NCBI GenBank assembly: GCA_964457525.1
Contig: CAYWGS010000071.1
Coordinates: 1-7,476, forward strand
Direction of reading: 5' to 3'
Origin: an uncultured Erysipelotrichaceae bacterium
Lineage (GTDB): Bacteria; Bacillota_I; Bacilli_A; Erysipelotrichales; Erysipelotrichaceae
Length of the DNA stretch: 7,476 bases
The notes beneath the pieces are model-generated. The model was given only the letters and a program-made list of their open reading frames with translations, searched no databases and was not told the origin of the DNA. This document shows positions 3,380 to 7,423 of the stretch, piece by piece. The translations under genes and the position numbers were made by a program. The stretch's first letter is position 1; the number at the start of each line of letters is the position of its first letter.

Positions 3380-3408
3380 ATAATATACCCCCCTTGGGTA
3401 TAATGCAA
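3380..3408 (-). promoter_or_regulatory. Sigma-A-type promoter of the copZ-copA-csoR operon
   Basis: The minus strand reads TTGCAT (-35, 3408-3403), a 17-nt spacer, then TATTAT (-10, 3385-3380). About 10 nt further on is the RBS AGAGGTG (3373-3367), then the copZ ATG at 3361. This gap and 7356-7428 are the only places in the window where a promoter could lie outside coding sequence. Confidence 0.55.
3384..3402. promoter_or_regulatory. Putative CsoR operator (inverted repeat TATACCC-N5-GGGTATA around a G/C tract)
   Basis: The plus strand 3384-3402 is TATACCCCCCTTGGGTATA, with perfect 7-bp arms (3384-3390 and 3396-3402) around a C/G-rich core. It fills the -35/-10 spacer and overlaps the -10. 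It has the general form of described CsoR operators (ATACCC...GGGGTAT, G/C-tract pseudo-palindromes), and a csoR gene is encoded in the same operon. Confidence 0.65.
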
Positions 3409-3419
3409 GAGTTTTGCAT

Positions 3420-3440
3420 AAAAAAAATAAGCTAAGCTTA
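3420..3440 (-). terminator. Weak candidate rho-independent terminator after yhaM
   Basis: The minus strand reads TAAGC-TTA-GCTTA (5-bp stem, 3-nt loop, including the yhaM stop codon) followed by T8 (3427-3420). The stem is short and has only 2 G:C pairs, so termination may be leaky, allowing read-through into the cop promoter region. Confidence 0.35.
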
Positions 3441-4379
3441 TTCTTTTGGTTTATAGAAACTACGATTCTCTAACGCAAATACACGAGTTGTCCATTCACC
3501 TGGATTAACTTGATCCAATGCTTTGGTTAACATATTCATACGAGCATCCACGTTATCAATATAATTGAGCATTTCAGCTTCCATTAACATTGGTAATACG
3601 GGTGAACCAAATTCATATTCACCATGATGGGATAGAATCATATGGCGCATAAGGGTTACTTGTTCAGACTTCTCAACACCCATCTTTGTCGCTACTTCAG
3701 AGACTTTACTTTGCATAATTGAGATATGACCTACTAACTTACCTTCTAAAGTATATTCAGTTAGAATCGGTCCAGAAAGTTCTTCCATCTTACCTAAATC
3801 ATGTAAGATAACACCCGCTAAGAGTAAATCACGATTTAAAATTGGATAGAGTTGGCAAAACGATTCAGCCAAATCAATCATCGCGATCATATGCGTCGCG
3901 AGTCCACCAACAAAGTCATGGTGATTCTTTGCGGCTGCAGGATAAACAAATAATTTATCGGCATATTGAGAAACGATGGATTTACAGATTCCTTGATAGA
4001 TTGGATCTTTCATTGACAACAAGGTTTCTTTAATACGTTTTTGCATGAACTCTAAACTAAGTGTCGTGCTTACAACATAGTCTCCTGGATTAAAGTCCGA
4101 TTCATTTAGTGGACTAACACCATAGAGTCTTAATTGGTTCGCATTACGATATTTCAAGACTTCACCAGTAACCTGTACGACTTTACCCGCTTCAATGGAT
4201 GCGAGCATATCTTCCTTAACATCCCATAATTTAGCTTCTATCGTGCCTGTTTGGTCTTGAAAACTAAAAGAAACATAAGGAGCTCCAGCATTTGTAATCC
4301 CTTTTGTAAGTTGAGTAATTAATAAACTGGTATTAACCTTCTCACCTTCCACAAAACTTTGAATTGTTTGTCTACTCAT
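3438..4379 (-). CDS. yhaM: 3'-5' exoribonuclease/exonuclease YhaM (N-terminal OB-fold + C-terminal HD phosphohydrolase domain)
   Basis: The N-terminus has an OB-fold pattern (VNTSLLITQLTKGITNAGAPYVSFSFQDQTGTIEAKLWDV) closely resembling Bacillus YhaM. The HD domain carries ILHDLGK, GHIS and ILSHHGEYEFGSPVLP. The maximal ORF starts at 4397 (MKWSGMMSRQ...) but no SD precedes it. A GGAG lies 7 nt upstream of the second ATG of the ATGATG pair (4379-4377), so I place the start at 4379; 4382 or 4397 remain possible. The start overlaps the stop of the upstream GT4::RecX gene. Confidence 0.85.
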   Translation of the reverse strand: MSRQTIQSFVEGEKVNTSLLITQLTKGITNAGAPYVSFSFQDQTGTIEAKLWDVKEDMLASIEAGKVVQVTGEVLKYRNANQLRLYGVSPLNESDFNPGDYVVSTTLSLEFMQKRIKETLLSMKDPIYQGICKSIVSQYADKLFVYPAAAKNHHDFVGGLATHMIAMIDLAESFCQLYPILNRDLLLAGVILHDLGKMEELSGPILTEYTLEGKLVGHISIMQSKVSEVATKMGVEKSEQVTLMRHMILSHHGEYEFGSPVLPMLMEAEMLNYIDNVDARMNMLTKALDQVNPGEWTTRVFALENRSFYKPKE

Positions 4380-6354
4380 CATCCCACTCCATTTCATTTA
4401 ATATAATATAAATATCATCTAGATTAAATCCTTGATGATCCAAATAACTAAAGACTGAATTTCTTAAACTTGTGCCTGTCGCCTTAGACGCATACTTACG
4501 TTTAGCCTTCATTGCGGCTTTACGTAATACATCCAACTCACCTTTCTCATCTTCAGTGAAGTTTAAACTACGCATAACCAATTCAATAACATTAAAATCA
4601 AAGCCTTGAGTCATTAATTTTTGTGTTAATTTTTGTTTCTTCAATCGAACAGACTTATCTTTAATGTTTGGTTTAACTTTCTCAGCCAAAGCCAATGCAT
4701 GTTCAACCTCATTTTCAAGATTATCATCTTGAATCACTCGATCAATAATTTCCTGAGCAATCCCTTTTCTACGTAAGGTTTGAATAATCTTTTGTTTACC
4801 TTGTAATAAAGCTTGAAGAGACGATACGGTATCACGTGCATACGCTTCATCATCGATGTATTTTCTGAACTCTAAATGTTCTACAATTCGATTAATTTGA
4901 CTAATATCCAAAGTTGTATTTTCAATCAAATAATCATAGATTTCTTTACGACTTCGGTCTTTAACACTGATCTTACGAATACAGCTTTGGTAGGCTTTTA
5001 CAGCTTGTTCGTGTTCAAGCAATTGTTCAATCGTTTCTTGACTCAACTCATTTCCCTTCCTTAAACCAAGTTGTACAAACATTTCCATACTAACTAAAAT
5101 GTTTAAACTACGGTTCTTATTCTCTAGTTCACATTCCACAACATCTTTCGTATGTTTAACTGATTTTAACAACATACTTTCTTGTGCTTGTGTTATCGCA
5201 TTTTGGTAAACCTTAAGTACTTGGTTCACAAACACTTCTCGATCATATGGCAATGAGCTTGAAAGAGCATTCCTACGAATCTCATGTTTTTGTTCAGTAT
5301 TAAGTTGGTAATACTCTTTTACCTTAGTACTGAAATCTTCCGCATTTTCAAAGAAATAACCATTCTTTCTAGGAATAATTAAATCCATTAATACAGAATC
5401 TTCACGCGCAAATACCACCTTACCACTTGCAAGTGCTTCAATAAAGGTCATTCCTTGTGTTTCCGTTAAGGAAGCAGATACGAAGATATCACAAGCATGA
5501 TAATAGATTGGAATCGTATGTGCAGCCTTTTTGCCCAAGAATAAAACAGTACCCTTATCCGCAATACGATCAGCGAGTTCTTTTAACTCATCTTCTTGAG
5601 GTCCTGCCCCAACAATAACTAATCGACTCGGTATTTGTGATTGATCTATTTTCGAGAATCCTTCGATAACTAAATCAATACTCTTTTCTTTCGCAATACG
5701 ACCTACATAGAGAATGGTTAGCTTCCCATCTAAATCGAGTTCAGATCGAAGATTATTCACATCATCAAAATGAACATTCTCTTGTTTAAATCGATCAAGA
5801 TTTAGACCTGTAGGAATAACTGTAATTGCACGTTTAATACCATAACCTTCTAACATTAATTTTGTTTTCTCAGAAGGTGAGATTGCGCCATCACTTGTTT
5901 CTACATAGAGTTTAGATAATTTTGAGACTGTCTTCTTCGCAACTTTCTCAAATGTTTTCGATTTAAATAAATTTACGTAATGTGTGTAGTCTTCATAAGT
6001 TGTATGATAGGTCACAACCAACGGTTTATGCATTAAACGAGCAACAATACGTGCAAAGATACCAATACCAAACTCGGTATGTGCATGTAAAATATCTAAG
6101 TTCATTTCTTTTACAATGTCATACGCACGGATATGAAGTGGTGATGTTAAGACATAACCATACATTTGTTTTAGTTGAATACCTGGTAATCGTAAAATAC
6201 GATTTTCATATGAAATTGTTAAAATAGAGGCATGTGTTGTCACAATAAAAACATCATGTCCCATCGCTTCTAAACCTTCTTGAAGCGTAACGATTGAAGA
6301 TACTACACCATTAATTTCTGGTGTGTATGTATCTGTAAATAATGCGATTCTCAT
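4372..6354 (-). CDS. Fusion protein: N-terminal GT4 (GT-B, retaining) glycosyltransferase resembling alpha-monoglucosyl-diacylglycerol synthases (residues 1-~393) + complete C-terminal RecX (RecA regulator) module (residues 394-660)
   Basis: The N-terminal part has MRIALFTDTYTPEINGVVSSI, HAHTEFG, VVTYHTTYEDYTHY and the EX7E motif ETQGMTFIE. This is the pattern I recognise from the Acholeplasma MGS / Streptococcus Spr0982 / Enterococcus BgsB / Listeria LafA class of GT4 glycolipid synthases. From M394 (codon 5175-5173) onward the protein is collinear with full-length (~264 aa) Bacillus-type RecX. MLLKSVKHTKDVVECELENKNRSLNILVSMEMFVQLGLRKGNELS corresponds to the N-terminal beta-rich segment. The repeated helical units follow (RSRKEIYDYLIE...IVEHLEFRKYIDDEAYARD...; GKQKIIQTLRRKGIAQEIIDRV; KQKLTQKLMTQGFDFNVIELVM; LRNSVFSYLDHQGFNLDDIYIIL). 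It is one uninterrupted reading frame. The ATG at 6354 overlaps the upstream TGA (ATGA) and is preceded by AGGGGGA. Confidence 0.8.
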   Translation of the reverse strand: MRIALFTDTYTPEINGVVSSIVTLQEGLEAMGHDVFIVTTHASILTISYENRILRLPGIQLKQMYGYVLTSPLHIRAYDIVKEMNLDILHAHTEFGIGIFARIVARLMHKPLVVTYHTTYEDYTHYVNLFKSKTFEKVAKKTVSKLSKLYVETSDGAISPSEKTKLMLEGYGIKRAITVIPTGLNLDRFKQENVHFDDVNNLRSELDLDGKLTILYVGRIAKEKSIDLVIEGFSKIDQSQIPSRLVIVGAGPQEDELKELADRIADKGTVLFLGKKAAHTIPIYYHACDIFVSASLTETQGMTFIEALASGKVVFAREDSVLMDLIIPRKNGYFFENAEDFSTKVKEYYQLNTEQKHEIRRNALSSSLPYDREVFVNQVLKVYQNAITQAQESMLLKSVKHTKDVVECELENKNRSLNILVSMEMFVQLGLRKGNELSQETIEQLLEHEQAVKAYQSCIRKISVKDRSRKEIYDYLIENTTLDISQINRIVEHLEFRKYIDDEAYARDTVSSLQALLQGKQKIIQTLRRKGIAQEIIDRVIQDDNLENEVEHALALAEKVKPNIKDKSVRLKKQKLTQKLMTQGFDFNVIELVMRSLNFTEDEKGELDVLRKAAMKAKRKYASKATGTSLRNSVFSYLDHQGFNLDDIYIILNEMEWDDE

Positions 6355-7355
6355 ACAATCCCCCTAACTTTCTCATAAATCGATTTTAACTTCTTTCCTA
6401 CTTCTGGAATACTTCTTTCAACCGCTAATTGATAGCCTGCTTCACAGGTATCAATCTGTTCTTTATTTAAGATTTGCTTAATATTGTTCGCGAATCCTTC
6501 GTTATCGATTGCCTTGAAACAGGATACATTATGTTCTAGCCAATCTTCATATACAGGAATATCACGAATGAGTACTGGGCACTTAGACGCAAGTGCTTCT
6601 AGAACAACAATCCCTTCTGTTTCTTCATAGGATGGAAAGAAGAAACAATCCGCAGATGCATAAGCACCTTCAATGATAGGCCCTTTAACATAACCTGGTA
6701 ATATAACATTTCTTGGATGATCATGGATCAAATCACGAACAGATTTAGGAATCGAAATCATCGGTGTATAACCAAACCAGATAAACTTAACATCTGGGAA
6801 ATACTTAGCGACTTCCATGAAGTCTTGTATCCCTTTGCGTTTAAAGTAAAGTCCTACGGATATAACAACTTTCTGATCATCCGATAATGAAAAATATCTT
6901 CTAAACGCTTTAACCTTTTCTTCATTATAGTTAAAACGATTTAAATCAATTCCATTCGATACATCTTCAATCTCAACCTCTATTCCATAATTTTGTAATA
7001 GTCGCTTCGAATAAGGTGTTGGAGTAATAATATAATCCGCTAATGAATAGAGATGAATTAAATGCTTACGCATAAATGGTGCAATCTGATTCGATAAGAT
7101 AAATGAGTTTCTAAAATCCTCTTCTGTACTGTGAGCATGGTAAATGACCTTTGCCCCATTCTTACGAGCATTCTCGATAACGGATGTACTTGTAATACCT
7201 ACAGTATTAATATGCAGAATATCAAACTTATCCTCTACATTTGTTGTATACTCGACACCGGCACTTTCAAGTGCTAGTTTCTGATGATGAAATGCACGAC
7301 CAATTCCAGATGTTTGAATTAATTTTTCTGACTCAAAGTATAATGCTACTTTCAT
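6351..7355 (-). CDS. GT4 family glycosyltransferase, probably the partner glycolipid (diglycosyl-diacylglycerol) synthase (CpoA / BgsA / LafB / alDGS-like)
   Basis: 334 aa with a GT-B fold pattern: N-terminal SGIGRAFHHQ, and the C-terminal EX7E signature (EETEGIVVLEALASKCPVLIRD) typical of retaining GT4 enzymes. A ~330-aa GT4 paired with a ~400-aa MGS-like GT4 is the conserved glycolipid/LTA-anchor synthesis pair in Lactobacillales, Listeria and Acholeplasma. The specific sugar and acceptor cannot be read from the sequence. The RBS AAAGGTG lies 6 nt before the ATG. Confidence 0.8.
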   Translation of the reverse strand: MKVALYFESEKLIQTSGIGRAFHHQKLALESAGVEYTTNVEDKFDILHINTVGITSTSVIENARKNGAKVIYHAHSTEEDFRNSFILSNQIAPFMRKHLIHLYSLADYIITPTPYSKRLLQNYGIEVEIEDVSNGIDLNRFNYNEEKVKAFRRYFSLSDDQKVVISVGLYFKRKGIQDFMEVAKYFPDVKFIWFGYTPMISIPKSVRDLIHDHPRNVILPGYVKGPIIEGAYASADCFFFPSYEETEGIVVLEALASKCPVLIRDIPVYEDWLEHNVSCFKAIDNEGFANNIKQILNKEQIDTCEAGYQLAVERSIPEVGKKLKSIYEKVRGIV

Positions 7356-7391: not shown

Positions 7392-7423
7392 AAAAAAAGG
7401 ATAACTTTTAGAAGTTATCCTTT
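7392..7423 (-). terminator. Rho-independent terminator of the upstream (partial) gene
   Basis: There is a perfect 12-bp stem (7396-7407 AAAGGATAACTT paired with 7412-7423 AAGTTATCCTTT) and a 4-nt loop (7408-7411). On the minus strand the stem is followed by and merges into a T7 run (7398-7392). It begins 6 nt after the TAA stop at 7431-7429. Confidence 0.8.

What the first reader, a model, noticed from the sequence alone, without database searches (positions are those of the whole stretch)
4372..6354. In-frame fusion of a complete membrane-glycolipid-type GT4 glycosyltransferase with a complete RecX (RecA inhibitor)
The 660-aa ORF is two full-length proteins joined without a linker. Residues 1-393 form an entire GT4 enzyme; the EX7E motif is present and the C-terminal helix ends ...VLKVYQNAITQAQES. 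Residue 394 is a Met (codon 5175-5173) that aligns with the initiator Met of stand-alone Firmicute RecX, and residues 394-660 (267 aa) match the RecX length and repeat layout end to end. RecX is normally a small soluble protein that caps or destabilises RecA filaments, and I know of no functional link between it and a sugar transferase. MGS-type GT4 enzymes are monotopic, membrane-surface proteins, so a covalent fusion would tether the RecA modulator to the inner membrane leaflet; this is inference. Only a weak, badly spaced purine patch (AGAAAG, 1 nt from the ATG) precedes M394. This argues against efficient independent RecX translation and for a genuine fusion protein. I cannot tell from the sequence whether this is a lineage-wide architecture or a strain-specific stop-codon loss.
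Basis: partly seen in the sequence, partly recalled or inferred. Interest (0 to 1): 0.75.

Follow-up and report, generated by a model that had tools for sequence, protein, structure and literature searches.

The report
Glycolipid synthase fused to RecX
One 660-residue protein joins a membrane glycolipid-making enzyme to RecX, a regulator of the DNA-repair protein RecA; the fusion is real, ancient and shared by a whole bacterial order (Erysipelotrichales) but has apparently never been described or studied.

Summary
ORF 4372-6354 (-) encodes a 660-aa protein. Residues 1-393 match an alMGS/BgsB-type GT4 glucosyltransferase end to end, and residues 394-660 match a long Firmicute-type RecX end to end.

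It is not a strain-specific stop-codon loss. At least 120 protein clusters and 77 of 79 species-level genome loci across Erysipelotrichales carry the same uninterrupted ORF (655-668 aa), down to 34% identity. These include Erysipelothrix, Bulleidia, Solobacterium, Holdemania, Anaerorhabdus and Thomasclavelia. The junction is the only stretch with no indel in 74 species. Both halves are under strong purifying selection (dN/dS 0.01-0.08).

M394 is not a relic start codon. The position is Tyr in 43 of 74 species and Met in only 6, and it has no Shine-Dalgarno sequence.

The stable genomic unit is recX followed by overlapping yhaM. In Solobacterium moorei the GT catalytic domain was deleted in place while RecX stayed strongly constrained, so RecX has its own function.

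Membrane tethering of RecX is a plausible physical consequence but is untested. Databases name these proteins after one half only, and no paper describing the fusion was found. Verdict: a real, undescribed variant of known parts, of moderate interest.

The parts
6351..7355 (-). Upstream gene: BgsA/IagA-type glycolipid glycosyltransferase (second step, diglucosyl-DAG synthase). Its stop overlaps the fusion start in an ATGA overlap.
   Evidence: NCBIfam NF053513 scores 508.1 bits, above the cut-off of 460. The overlap was read from the sequence. The gene is conserved directly upstream, or one gene further upstream, in most loci.
4372..6354 (-). The 660-aa fusion ORF (GT4 glucosyltransferase::RecX), 75.6 kDa
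5176..6354 (-). GT module, residues 1-393: retaining GT4 / GT-B fold, alMGS/BgsB-like 1,2-diacylglycerol 3-alpha-glucosyltransferase
   Evidence: Pfam and NCBIfam hits. AF2 model with Foldseek top hits BshA, MshA and PimA. G16, H117, R219, K224, E298 and E306 are invariant in 74 of 74 species.
5437..5463 (-). EX7E catalytic/donor-binding motif (E298-TQGMTFI-E306)
   Evidence: Invariant in A1, A2 and the 74-species alignment
5149..5241 (-). Junction: last GT helix (res 372-391), two connecting residues, and the first RecX beta-strand (res 394-402). No linker.
   Evidence: AF2 secondary structure and pLDDT 83-89. Zero of 31 alignment columns (res 370-400) contain a gap in 74 species.
5173..5175 (-). 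Codon for M394. It is not an internal start but a lineage-specific substitution at a conserved aromatic position.
   Evidence: Residue counts are Y 43, M 6, F 5, L 5, V 4. SD dG is -0.7 kcal/mol, and 67% of in-frame positions in the gene bind at least as well.
4375..5175 (-). RecX module, residues 394-660: a three-stranded beta subdomain (394-422) followed by a stack of three-helix repeats (439-654)
   Evidence: Pfam RecX_HTH1/2/3 and PRK14135 positions 9-264 of 267. PDB sequence hits 3d5l (2.4e-14) and 3e3v. AF2 model. dN/dS 0.012-0.076.
3438..4397 (-). Downstream gene yhaM (OB + HD 3'-5' exonuclease), overlapping the end of the fusion. The likely true start is M6/M7 at 4382/4379, using a GGAG that lies inside the RecX C-terminal 'EMEW' codons.
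   Evidence: NCBIfam NF010007 at 5e-114, 380.6 bits, below the cut-off of 460. SD analysis. The gene lies directly downstream, overlapping in most cases, in essentially all 79 loci, in the stand-alone recX loci and in S. moorei.
7396..7423 (-). Terminator-like hairpin (12-bp stem plus T-run) upstream of bgsA, marking the 5' boundary of the bgsA-mgs::recX-yhaM unit

Best explanation
This is a genuine, ancient gene fusion that is fixed across the order Erysipelotrichales. One 75.6-kDa polypeptide is translated from the GT start codon. It consists of (i) an alMGS/BgsB-type monotopic GT4 enzyme that makes monoglucosyl-diacylglycerol, the first step of the membrane glycolipid / LTA-anchor pathway, whose second enzyme (BgsA/IagA type) is encoded just upstream, and (ii) the lineage's RecX, the factor that dismantles or caps RecA filaments. 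The two are joined rigidly, helix to strand, without a linker.

Both modules keep their own function. The fusion sits in a translationally coupled operon, bgsA - mgs::recX - yhaM. The older, more stable pair is recX-yhaM, a nucleic-acid-metabolism pair, onto which the GT was joined.

The physical consequence is inferred, not shown. RecX would be made constitutively, 1:1 with a housekeeping membrane enzyme, with no SOS box. It would be held at the cytoplasmic face of the membrane rather than diffusing freely as in B. subtilis. Its action would therefore be biased towards membrane-proximal RecA and away from nucleoid filaments.

Shown here: the ORF, the identity of both modules, order-wide conservation, purifying selection on both halves, absence of an internal start, synteny, and the independence of RecX from GT catalysis. 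Inferred: membrane association of the GT half, RecA binding by the RecX half, and any selective advantage of tethering.
For: Domain identity end to end. Order-wide distribution: at least 120 clusters at 90% identity, all 656-666 aa with 99-100% coverage, down to 45% identity. The best 80 species loci span 34-88% identity and two families. 77 of 79 loci are uninterrupted across the junction and none has a stop at the junction. The junction has no indel in 74 species, whereas every other region has gapped columns. dN/dS is 0.029-0.083 for the GT half and 0.012-0.076 for the RecX half. GT catalytic residues are invariant in 74 of 74 species. There is no SD at M394 and the Met is not conserved. 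Synteny: the fusion is followed directly by yhaM, usually overlapping, in nearly all loci, and stand-alone RecX in some Erysipelotrichales MAGs occupies the same recX-yhaM position, so the fused RecX is the locus orthologue and not a spare paralogue. Natural experiment: in S. moorei, at the orthologous locus, the GT C-domain is deleted, yet RecX stays at dN/dS 0.08 while the N-terminal remnant is relaxed at 0.19-0.51. Its RecX is nearest to Solobacterium/Bulleidia fusions in 459 of 500 bootstraps. Membrane plausibility: no TM segment, N-domain pI 8.9, and an amphipathic +5 helix at about 131-152. AlMGS is described as a monotopic enzyme, and its irreversible binding to an anionic bilayer surface is the subject of a paper cited there (PMC6506492). 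E. coli RecA storage structures and bundles associate with anionic phospholipids at the inner membrane (PMC6363387). Free B. subtilis RecX is dispersed in the cell and forms nucleoid and polar foci (PMC3527212).
Against: Nothing here shows that the protein is at the membrane or that it touches RecA. Both halves score below NCBIfam's equivalog cut-offs (270.7 vs 400 bits; 157.1 vs 240 bits), so exact substrate and activity are not guaranteed. The pTM of 0.62 gives no confident relative placement of the two modules, and PAE was not available. Secondary separations are tolerated (stand-alone RecX lineages and the S. moorei truncation), so the covalent link is not indispensable. Post-translational cleavage cannot be excluded from sequence. 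Whether a second recX exists elsewhere in these genomes could not be checked.
Confidence: 0.6

Rival explanations
1. Neutral, 'frozen accident' fusion. A stop codon between neighbouring genes was lost once in the ancestor of Erysipelotrichales, and the fusion persists only because both modules are needed and splitting them again is improbable. Tethering would have no adaptive or regulatory meaning.
For: Stand-alone RecX lineages and the S. moorei form show that the two functions can be uncoupled. The pTM of 0.62 gives no evidence of a co-evolved interface. No functional link between the two pathways is published.
Against: The junction is the only indel-free stretch in 74 species over divergence down to 34% identity. 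That argues for a structural constraint on how the modules are joined rather than a free tether. 77 of 79 species retain the fusion. S. moorei kept a trimmed N-terminal Rossmann remnant plus the last GT helix, in frame and indel-free, rather than reverting to a bare RecX.
Confidence: 0.2
2. One ORF, two proteins. Free RecX is released by internal translation initiation at or near M394, or by proteolytic processing at the junction, so that RecX works as an ordinary soluble protein.
For: The window and its five closest relatives do have an ATG at residue 394.
Against: The Met is absent in 68 of 74 species. SD dG is -0.7 kcal/mol, against -4.4 to -9.3 at real starts, and is weaker than at 67% of in-frame positions. 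Promoter-like sites in the region are not above chance, with 15 found against 19 expected. The junction is an ordered helix-to-strand connection with pLDDT 83-89, not an exposed linker.
Confidence: 0.1
3. The RecX-like module has been co-opted as a regulatory or scaffolding domain of the glycolipid synthase and no longer modulates RecA. For example, it could couple lipid synthesis to DNA or nucleotide status, or mediate oligomerisation.
For: The RecX half scores below the equivalog cut-off (157 vs 240 bits) and evolves faster than the GT half (mean pairwise identity 33% vs 47%). One paper title reports that the A. laidlawii regulatory glycolipid enzyme is stimulated by double-stranded DNA (Vikstrom et al. 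2000, seen only as a reference; the paper was not read).
Against: In S. moorei the GT catalytic domain is gone while RecX remains at dN/dS 0.08. Stand-alone RecX occupies the same recX-yhaM locus without any adjacent GT. The RecX module is full length with all repeats and has strong similarity to solved RecX structures. The conserved partner gene is a nuclease, not a lipid enzyme.
Confidence: 0.08
4. Assembly or sequencing artefact, or a strain-specific stop-codon loss joining two ordinary adjacent genes.
For: None was found.
Against: The identical protein is on record as a cluster of 36 member sequences on 2 contigs. The same ORF is present in isolates and MAGs of dozens of genera. No locus has a stop at the junction.
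Confidence: 0.01

Closest known systems
Bacillus subtilis RecX (YfhG, 264 aa), the long Firmicute form of RecX
   Same: Length and layout match residues 394-660: an N-terminal extension followed by tandem three-helix repeats, covering PRK14135 positions 9-264 of 267. It is a RecA-filament modulator needed for repair and transformation (PMC3527212, PMC5587729).
   Different: B. subtilis RecX is a free, dispersed cytoplasmic protein that forms nucleoid and polar foci. Here the module is covalently joined to a 44.5-kDa membrane-lipid enzyme and has no start codon of its own in most species. RecA interaction was not tested here.
Acholeplasma laidlawii alMGS and Enterococcus faecalis BgsB (1,2-diacylglycerol 3-alpha-glucosyltransferase, GT4)
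   Same: Residues 1-396 match the MGlcDAG-synthase model end to end, and the EX7E motif is present. The gene lies directly downstream of a BgsA-type gene, as bgsB does in E. faecalis (PMC3083329). AlMGS is a monotopic enzyme (PMC6506492).
   Different: The score of 270.7 bits is below the equivalog cut-off of 400. The known enzymes end at about 400 aa, whereas this one continues into RecX without a linker.
Solobacterium moorei 384-aa 'RecX family transcriptional regulator' (for example P0347, P0320)
   Same: It occupies the orthologous locus, directly followed by and overlapping the yhaM-like HD gene. Its RecX module is closest to Solobacterium/Bulleidia fusions. The N-terminus still begins MRIGFLTNAYP like the GT.
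   Different: The GT is reduced to about 112 residues: a trimmed Rossmann-like half-domain plus the last helix. It has no donor-binding domain, no EX7E motif and no GT Pfam hit. The remnant is under relaxed selection, and no bgsA gene lies upstream.
Membrane sequestration of DNA-damage-response factors in E. coli (membrane-associated RecA storage structures and bundles; UmuC held at the inner membrane)
   Same: This is a resemblance in how it may work, not in family. Access of a recombination or SOS factor to DNA is controlled by where it sits relative to the membrane (PMC6363387).
   Different: Those cases involve non-covalent lipid or protein association in a proteobacterium. Here the association would be hard-wired by gene fusion. 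No experiment links the two.

Membership tests
GT4 retaining glycosyltransferases (GT-B fold) | Paired Glyco_transf_4 (N) and Glycos_transf_1 (C) domains above Pfam gathering scores | tested here: met
   PF13439 scores 94.3 bits (cut-off 28.5) and PF00534 scores 106.9 bits (cut-off 26.4)
GT4 retaining glycosyltransferases (GT-B fold) | EX7E motif and the conserved Arg/Lys of the donor-binding site | tested here: met
   E298, E306, R219 and K224 are invariant in 74 of 74 species
GT4 retaining glycosyltransferases (GT-B fold) | Two-Rossmann GT-B architecture with the C-terminal helix crossing back | tested here: met
   AF2 pLDDT 86.7. Foldseek top hits are BshA, MshA and PimA with E-values 1e-18 to 1e-19.
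alpha-monoglucosyl-DAG synthase (alMGS/BgsB; NCBIfam NF049988) | Full-length match to the family profile | tested here: met
   Residues 1-396 align to profile positions 1-397 of 398, E = 2.6e-80
alpha-monoglucosyl-DAG synthase (alMGS/BgsB; NCBIfam NF049988) | Score at or above the curated equivalog cut-off (400 bits) | tested here: not met
   270.7 bits, so it is a relative of the family. The exact substrate and product are inferred, not assigned.
alpha-monoglucosyl-DAG synthase (alMGS/BgsB; NCBIfam NF049988) | Genomic pairing with the second-step (DGlcDAG, BgsA/IagA-type) synthase | tested here: met
   The upstream gene hits NF053513 at 508.1 bits, above the cut-off of 460, and overlaps in ATGA. 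The pairing is conserved in most loci.
alpha-monoglucosyl-DAG synthase (alMGS/BgsB; NCBIfam NF049988) | Monotopic association with the cytoplasmic membrane face | tested here: inconclusive
   There is no TM segment (maximum 19-residue Kyte-Doolittle mean 1.24), the N-domain is basic (pI 8.9), and residues 131-152 form an amphipathic +5 helix. These are compatible with monotopic binding but are not proof.
alpha-monoglucosyl-DAG synthase (alMGS/BgsB; NCBIfam NF049988) | UDP-glucose:DAG glucosyltransferase activity | not testable with these tools
   Needs an enzyme assay or complementation of a bgsB mutant
RecX (long Firmicute form; Pfam RecX_HTH1-3, NCBIfam PRK14135) | Three tandem three-helix repeats, each above the Pfam gathering score | tested here: met
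   HTH1 42.9 bits, HTH2 34.8 bits, HTH3 50.7 bits, each with a cut-off of 26
RecX (long Firmicute form; Pfam RecX_HTH1-3, NCBIfam PRK14135) | End-to-end coverage of the ~267-aa Firmicute RecX profile, including the N-terminal extension | tested here: met
   Residues 398-656 align to positions 9-264 of 267, E = 6.6e-46. AF2 shows a beta subdomain at 394-422 followed by helical repeats to residue 654.
RecX (long Firmicute form; Pfam RecX_HTH1-3, NCBIfam PRK14135) | Score at or above the curated equivalog cut-off (240 bits) | tested here: not met
   157.1 bits. RecX diverges fast: mean pairwise identity within the fusion family is only 33%.
RecX (long Firmicute form; Pfam RecX_HTH1-3, NCBIfam PRK14135) | Sequence similarity to RecX proteins of solved structure | tested here: met
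   3d5l at 2.4e-14 and 3e3v at 4.8e-12
RecX (long Firmicute form; Pfam RecX_HTH1-3, NCBIfam PRK14135) | Small free-standing soluble protein | tested here: not met
   It is fused in frame to a 393-aa enzyme in 77 of 79 species loci, with no internal start
RecX (long Firmicute form; Pfam RecX_HTH1-3, NCBIfam PRK14135) | Binds RecA and inhibits or disassembles RecA filaments | not testable with these tools
   Needs biochemistry with the cognate RecA
RecX (long Firmicute form; Pfam RecX_HTH1-3, NCBIfam PRK14135) | It is the lineage's orthologous recX, not an extra paralogue | tested here: inconclusive
   It shares the recX-yhaM locus position with stand-alone RecX of Erysipelotrichales MAGs and with S. 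moorei. Whole genomes could not be searched for a second copy.

The most novel reading that the evidence does not exclude
The covalent link is functional. By hard-wiring RecX to a monotopic, anionic-lipid-seeking glycolipid synthase, Erysipelotrichales would regulate RecA spatially. RecX would patrol the membrane surface, where RecA stores, RecA bundles or incoming transforming DNA are found in other bacteria, and would be kept off nucleoid filaments. Alternatively, the coupling could run the other way, with glycolipid synthesis adjusted to DNA or RecA-filament status through the RecX module. Either version would be a previously unrecognised coupling between the membrane-lipid and recombination machineries.
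Probability: 0.25. Interest if true: 0.7.

Novelty: new variant of a known kind. Interest (0 to 1): 0.5.

Why it matters
RecX is studied as a small diffusible inhibitor of RecA. Here an entire bacterial order, which includes the pathogen genus Erysipelothrix and common gut and oral genera such as Solobacterium, Bulleidia, Holdemania and Thomasclavelia, has only, or mainly, a version welded to a membrane enzyme. That makes a natural test case for whether RecA regulation has a spatial, membrane-linked component. This idea has so far rested on E. coli cytology (RecA storage structures and bundles at anionic lipids).

There is also a practical point. Automatic annotation names these 660-aa proteins either 'glycosyltransferase' or 'RecX family transcriptional regulator'. 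Pathway reconstructions for these genomes will therefore miss either the first glycolipid step or RecX.

The S. moorei truncation and the stand-alone lineages provide ready-made natural controls.

Tried and rejected
1. Internal translation start at M394: rejected. The Met is present in only 6 of 74 species, there is no SD, and no other plausible in-frame start lies near the junction.

2. Stop or frameshift at the junction in relatives: four loci were flagged. Two were my own range overshoot past the natural stop (L047, L061). One is a 10-N scaffold gap (L072). One is a real in-frame stop, but at about residue 447 inside RecX, in a MAG (L073).

3. SOS regulation: no Cheo/LexA box in the window. 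The single 2-mismatch hit lies inside copA and is at chance level.

4. Internal promoter near the junction: promoter-like sites are not above the shuffled expectation.

5. Several apparently stand-alone or intermediate-length RecX relatives from the representative search turned out to be, or probably are, contig-edge fragments of fusions. P0132, P0151 and P0147 start inside the GT. P0127 and P0146 lie on contigs of about 1 kb, and P0127's cluster contains GT-named fragments. They were not counted as splits.

6. An NJ tree of RecX modules, meant to polarise fusion against fission, gave deep branches too noisy to use, and the taxonomy of the 'outgroup' sequences is unknown. Only nearest-neighbour bootstraps were used.

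7. Inter-module packing: only pTM (0.62) is returned and no PAE, so whether the modules contact each other stays open.

8. Literature: nine full-text searches found no description of a RecX-GT fusion. One metaproteomics paper mentions both RecX and Erysipelotrichaceae, but its RecX hits come from other taxa. The Vikstrom 2000 paper on dsDNA stimulation of the Acholeplasma enzyme could not be read.

9. A search of whole genomes for a second recX was not possible with the tools.

Full report
**What is in the window**

The minus strand carries a tight gene series. It runs from a 334-aa GT (6351-7355), to the 660-aa ORF in question (4372-6354), to a 319-aa OB+HD protein (3438-4397), and then copZ, copA and a csoR-like gene.

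- The first gene is a BgsA/IagA-type glycolipid glycosyltransferase. NCBIfam NF053513 scores 508 bits, above its cut-off of 460.
- The third is a YhaM-type 3'-5' exonuclease (NF010007, 5e-114, 380.6 bits, below its cut-off of 460).
- The bgsA stop and the fusion start overlap as ATGA.
- The end of the fusion overlaps the start of yhaM.
- A strong terminator-like hairpin lies upstream of bgsA.
- The yhaM-copZ gap holds a promoter-like pair and a CsoR-type operator.

The transcription unit of interest is therefore bgsA - fusion - yhaM.

**Checking the observation**

- Pfam finds Glyco_transf_4 (res 14-188) and Glycos_transf_1 (203-363), plus RecX_HTH1 (454-478), HTH2 (501-540) and HTH3 (547-593), all above gathering scores.
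- NCBIfam aligns residues 1-396 to positions 1-397 of 398 of the alpha-monoglucosyl-DAG synthase model. It aligns residues 398-656 to positions 9-264 of 267 of RecX PRK14135. Both hits are end to end, but both are below the equivalog cut-offs (270.7 vs 400 bits; 157.1 vs 240 bits).
- By sequence, the RecX half hits the solved RecX structures 3d5l (2.4e-14) and 3e3v, and the GT half hits BshA-type GT4 enzymes.
- The EX7E motif is E298...E306.
- The ATG for residue 394 lies at 5175-5173, preceded by ...AGAAAGT.

**Strain accident or lineage trait**

This was the open question, and the answer is clear.

- A search of 5.8 billion proteins returned 2692 relatives with E <= 1e-10. The best 120 clusters are all 656-666 aa, cover 99-100% of the query, and reach down to 45% identity. 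The few that carry names come from Erysipelotrichaceae or Anaerorhabdus.
- A scan of one genome per species returned 80 loci at 34-88% identity. All but three that are cut by a contig end span residues ~1-660. They include Erysipelothrix tonsillarum and aquatica, Bulleidia extructa, Solobacterium, Holdemania, Anaerorhabdus, Lactimicrobium, Traorella, Merdibacter, [Eubacterium] hominis, Amedibacillus dolichus and Thomasclavelia. These belong to at least the families Erysipelotrichaceae and Coprobacillaceae.
- Of 79 loci holding both halves, 77 are uninterrupted across the junction. One has a 10-N scaffold gap. One MAG has an in-frame stop at about residue 447, inside RecX and not at the junction.

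An assembly artefact and a strain-specific stop loss are both excluded.

**The junction**

- In 74 complete orthologues (655-668 aa), no indel occurs between the last GT helix and the first RecX strand. Residues 370-400 are the only stretch of the alignment without a gapped column.
- Position 394 is Tyr in 43 species, Met in 6 (the window and its five closest relatives), and otherwise Phe, Leu, Val and others.
- In true stand-alone RecX the equivalent position is an internal aromatic residue 4-7 residues after the start. The Met is therefore a local substitution, not a fossil initiator.
- The 22 nt upstream pair with the anti-SD at only -0.7 kcal/mol, against -4.4 to -9.3 for the six real starts in the window. 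Two-thirds of in-frame positions in the gene do as well or better.
- AlphaFold (89-sequence alignment, mean pLDDT 86.7) shows helix 372-391, two connecting residues, then strand 394-402, with pLDDT in the 80s. This is a rigid, ordered joint, not a linker.
- The pTM of 0.62 does not allow a confident statement on how the two modules sit relative to each other.

**Are both halves alive?**

Yes, on three counts.

- dN/dS is 0.029-0.083 for the GT half and 0.012-0.076 for the RecX half. The least saturated pair gives 0.029 and 0.012.
- G16, H117, R219, K224, E298 and E306 are invariant in 74 of 74 species.
- The GT half folds as a GT-B enzyme closest to BshA, MshA and PimA.

RecX diverges faster than the GT (mean pairwise identity 33% vs 47%), as is usual for RecX.

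**What the relatives reveal**

The most conserved neighbour is yhaM. It follows the fusion directly, with overlapping frames in most cases, in essentially every locus. The position of bgsA varies. It is adjacent in close relatives. In others it is separated by an LPG_synthase_TM membrane-protein gene, shown in L011. In some loci it was not detected within the flank held.

A search with the RecX half alone against 1.84 billion representatives found mostly ~660-aa fusions plus shorter proteins. Several of the shorter ones are contig-edge fragments. Two classes are real.

- *Stand-alone RecX of 275 aa in Erysipelotrichales MAGs.* These lie in the order HAD hydrolase - recX - yhaM, again overlapping yhaM and with no GT nearby.
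- *A 384-aa protein fixed in Solobacterium moorei and its near relatives.* It is 382-385 aa in every listed relative, down to 84% identity. It sits at the orthologous place, directly before the yhaM-like gene, with no bgsA.

The RecX module of the S. moorei protein is nearest to Solobacterium/Bulleidia fusions in 459 of 500 bootstraps. Its first ~112 residues begin MRIGFLTNAYP like the GT. They are predicted as a trimmed Rossmann-like half-domain plus a terminal helix that runs straight into the RecX strands. The donor-binding domain and the EX7E motif are gone, and no GT Pfam hit remains. Between diverged members, RecX is at dN/dS 0.08 and the remnant at 0.19-0.51.

This natural experiment shows two things. 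The RecX module has a function that does not depend on GT catalysis. The fused RecX is the locus orthologue of ordinary RecX.

**How it most likely works**

*Shown:* one polypeptide is made from the GT start. It contains two intact, selected modules that are rigidly joined, in an operon with a glycolipid partner enzyme and a nuclease.

*From established knowledge:*
- BgsB/alMGS-type enzymes make monoglucosyl-DAG (PMC3083329).
- AlMGS is described as a monotopic enzyme, and its irreversible binding to an anionic bilayer surface is the subject of a paper cited there (PMC6506492).
- RecX promotes RecA filament disassembly. In B. subtilis it is dispersed in the cell and forms nucleoid and polar foci (PMC3527212, PMC5587729).
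- In E. coli, RecA storage structures and bundles associate with anionic phospholipids at the inner membrane (PMC6363387).

*From the sequence:* the GT half has no TM segment, a basic N-domain (pI 8.9) and an amphipathic +5 helix at about 131-152.

*Inference:* the fusion places RecX at the cytoplasmic membrane face, at a constitutive level tied to a housekeeping enzyme, since no LexA box is present. Its action would be biased towards membrane-proximal RecA.

I put about 0.9 on 'genuine, ancient, bifunctional single polypeptide' and about 0.5 on 'membrane-held RecX with functional consequences'. The combined figure is 0.6.

**Rivals**

- *Neutral frozen accident (0.2).* The tolerated separations fit this view. 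The uniquely indel-free junction and the retention of the remnant in S. moorei argue against it.
- *Free RecX released by internal initiation or processing (0.1).* The missing Met and SD and the ordered junction argue against it.
- *RecX co-opted as a GT regulatory domain (0.08).* A 2000 JBC title reports dsDNA stimulation of the Acholeplasma regulatory glycolipid enzyme (seen only as a reference). The S. moorei form and the stand-alone lineages argue against it.
- *Artefact (0.01).* Refuted.

**Novelty**

The parts are textbook, and the architecture is abundant in sequence databases. There it is named for one half only: 'glycosyltransferase', 'RecX family transcriptional regulator' or '1,2-diacylglycerol 3-alpha-glucosyltransferase'. 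Nine full-text searches found no description of it.

I class it as a new variant of a known kind: a RecX that is constitutively fused to a membrane glycolipid synthase across a whole order. Interest is moderate (0.5). The fusion is real, old and clean, and it offers a testable link between membrane and recombination. It does not bear on a long-standing open question, and the functional link is still inference.

Noticed in passing
L084 7001-8155 (S. moorei chromosome AP028934.1); also L085, L086, L087: Solobacterium moorei and its near relatives carry a 384-aa protein made of a ~112-residue trimmed remnant of the GT N-domain plus a full RecX. It sits at the orthologous locus, followed by the yhaM-like HD gene, murT and gatD. 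The remnant is under relaxed selection (dN/dS 0.19-0.51) but is still in frame and free of indels, while RecX is at 0.08. Sources name it 'RecX family transcriptional regulator' or 'hypothetical protein'.
   Followed up: yes
P0180 (366 aa) and P0158 (386 aa); taxa unknown: Two further proteins combine a short non-GT-scoring N-terminal region (about 100-130 aa) with a full RecX. They differ in sequence from the S. moorei remnant, which suggests that erosion of the GT half happened more than once.
   Followed up: partly
window 4372-4397 (-): The likely yhaM start (M6/M7 at 4382/4379) uses a GGAG that lies inside the codons of the conserved RecX C-terminal motif N-E-M-E-W. Part of the conservation of that motif may therefore reflect the ribosome-binding site of the overlapping downstream gene. 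The ORF start listed at 4397 has no SD.
   Followed up: partly
window 3380-3440 (-): The yhaM-copZ intergenic region contains TTGCAT (3408-3403), a 17-nt spacer and TATTAT (3385-3380). A CsoR-type inverted repeat, ATACCCAAGGGGGGTAT (3401-3385), overlaps the spacer. A short palindrome plus T8 lies right after the yhaM stop. The cop genes (copZ, copA with a TTG start overlapping copZ, and a csoR-like gene last) therefore look like a separate copper-regulated unit.
   Followed up: partly
L011 3951-4991 (+) (Holdemania MAG); a ~1-kb bgsA-to-fusion gap is also seen in many other loci (e.g. L012, L019, L022): In many more distant Erysipelotrichales, bgsA and the fusion are about 1 kb apart. In L011, the only such locus examined, the gap holds a 346-aa LPG_synthase_TM-family membrane protein (PF03706, 4.3e-38). 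It could be a lipid-translocation partner of the glycolipid enzymes. The window's lineage lacks it.
   Followed up: partly
L073 around position 6132: One Erysipelotrichaceae MAG (RUG12927) has an in-frame TAA at about residue 447, inside the RecX N-terminal region. This is either a sequencing error or a lineage in which RecX is being truncated or re-initiated.
   Followed up: no
L081 5450-7625; L082 1-2012: In the Erysipelotrichales MAGs with stand-alone RecX (275 aa), the gene order is HAD-family hydrolase, recX, then yhaM with overlaps. In L081 a ComK-family gene lies about 3.5 kb upstream. Whether these genomes have an MGlcDAG synthase elsewhere is unknown.
   Followed up: partly
Literature (reference lists seen): Vikstrom, Li & Wieslander 2000 (J Biol Chem 275:9296, pmid 10734070). 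The title states that the regulatory glycolipid enzyme of Acholeplasma laidlawii is stimulated by double-stranded DNA. This is a possible older biochemical hint of DNA-glycolipid-synthase coupling in a related lineage. The paper was not available to read.
   Followed up: no
window 5887-6354 (-), fusion residues 13-17, 60-70 and 124-127: The only low-confidence (pLDDT < 50) segments of the AF2 model are three loops of the GT N-domain. One includes the conserved aromatic stretch LK-x-(L/M)-YGYV. Such disordered N-domain loops are where membrane and acceptor binding would be expected in a lipid GT.
   Followed up: no
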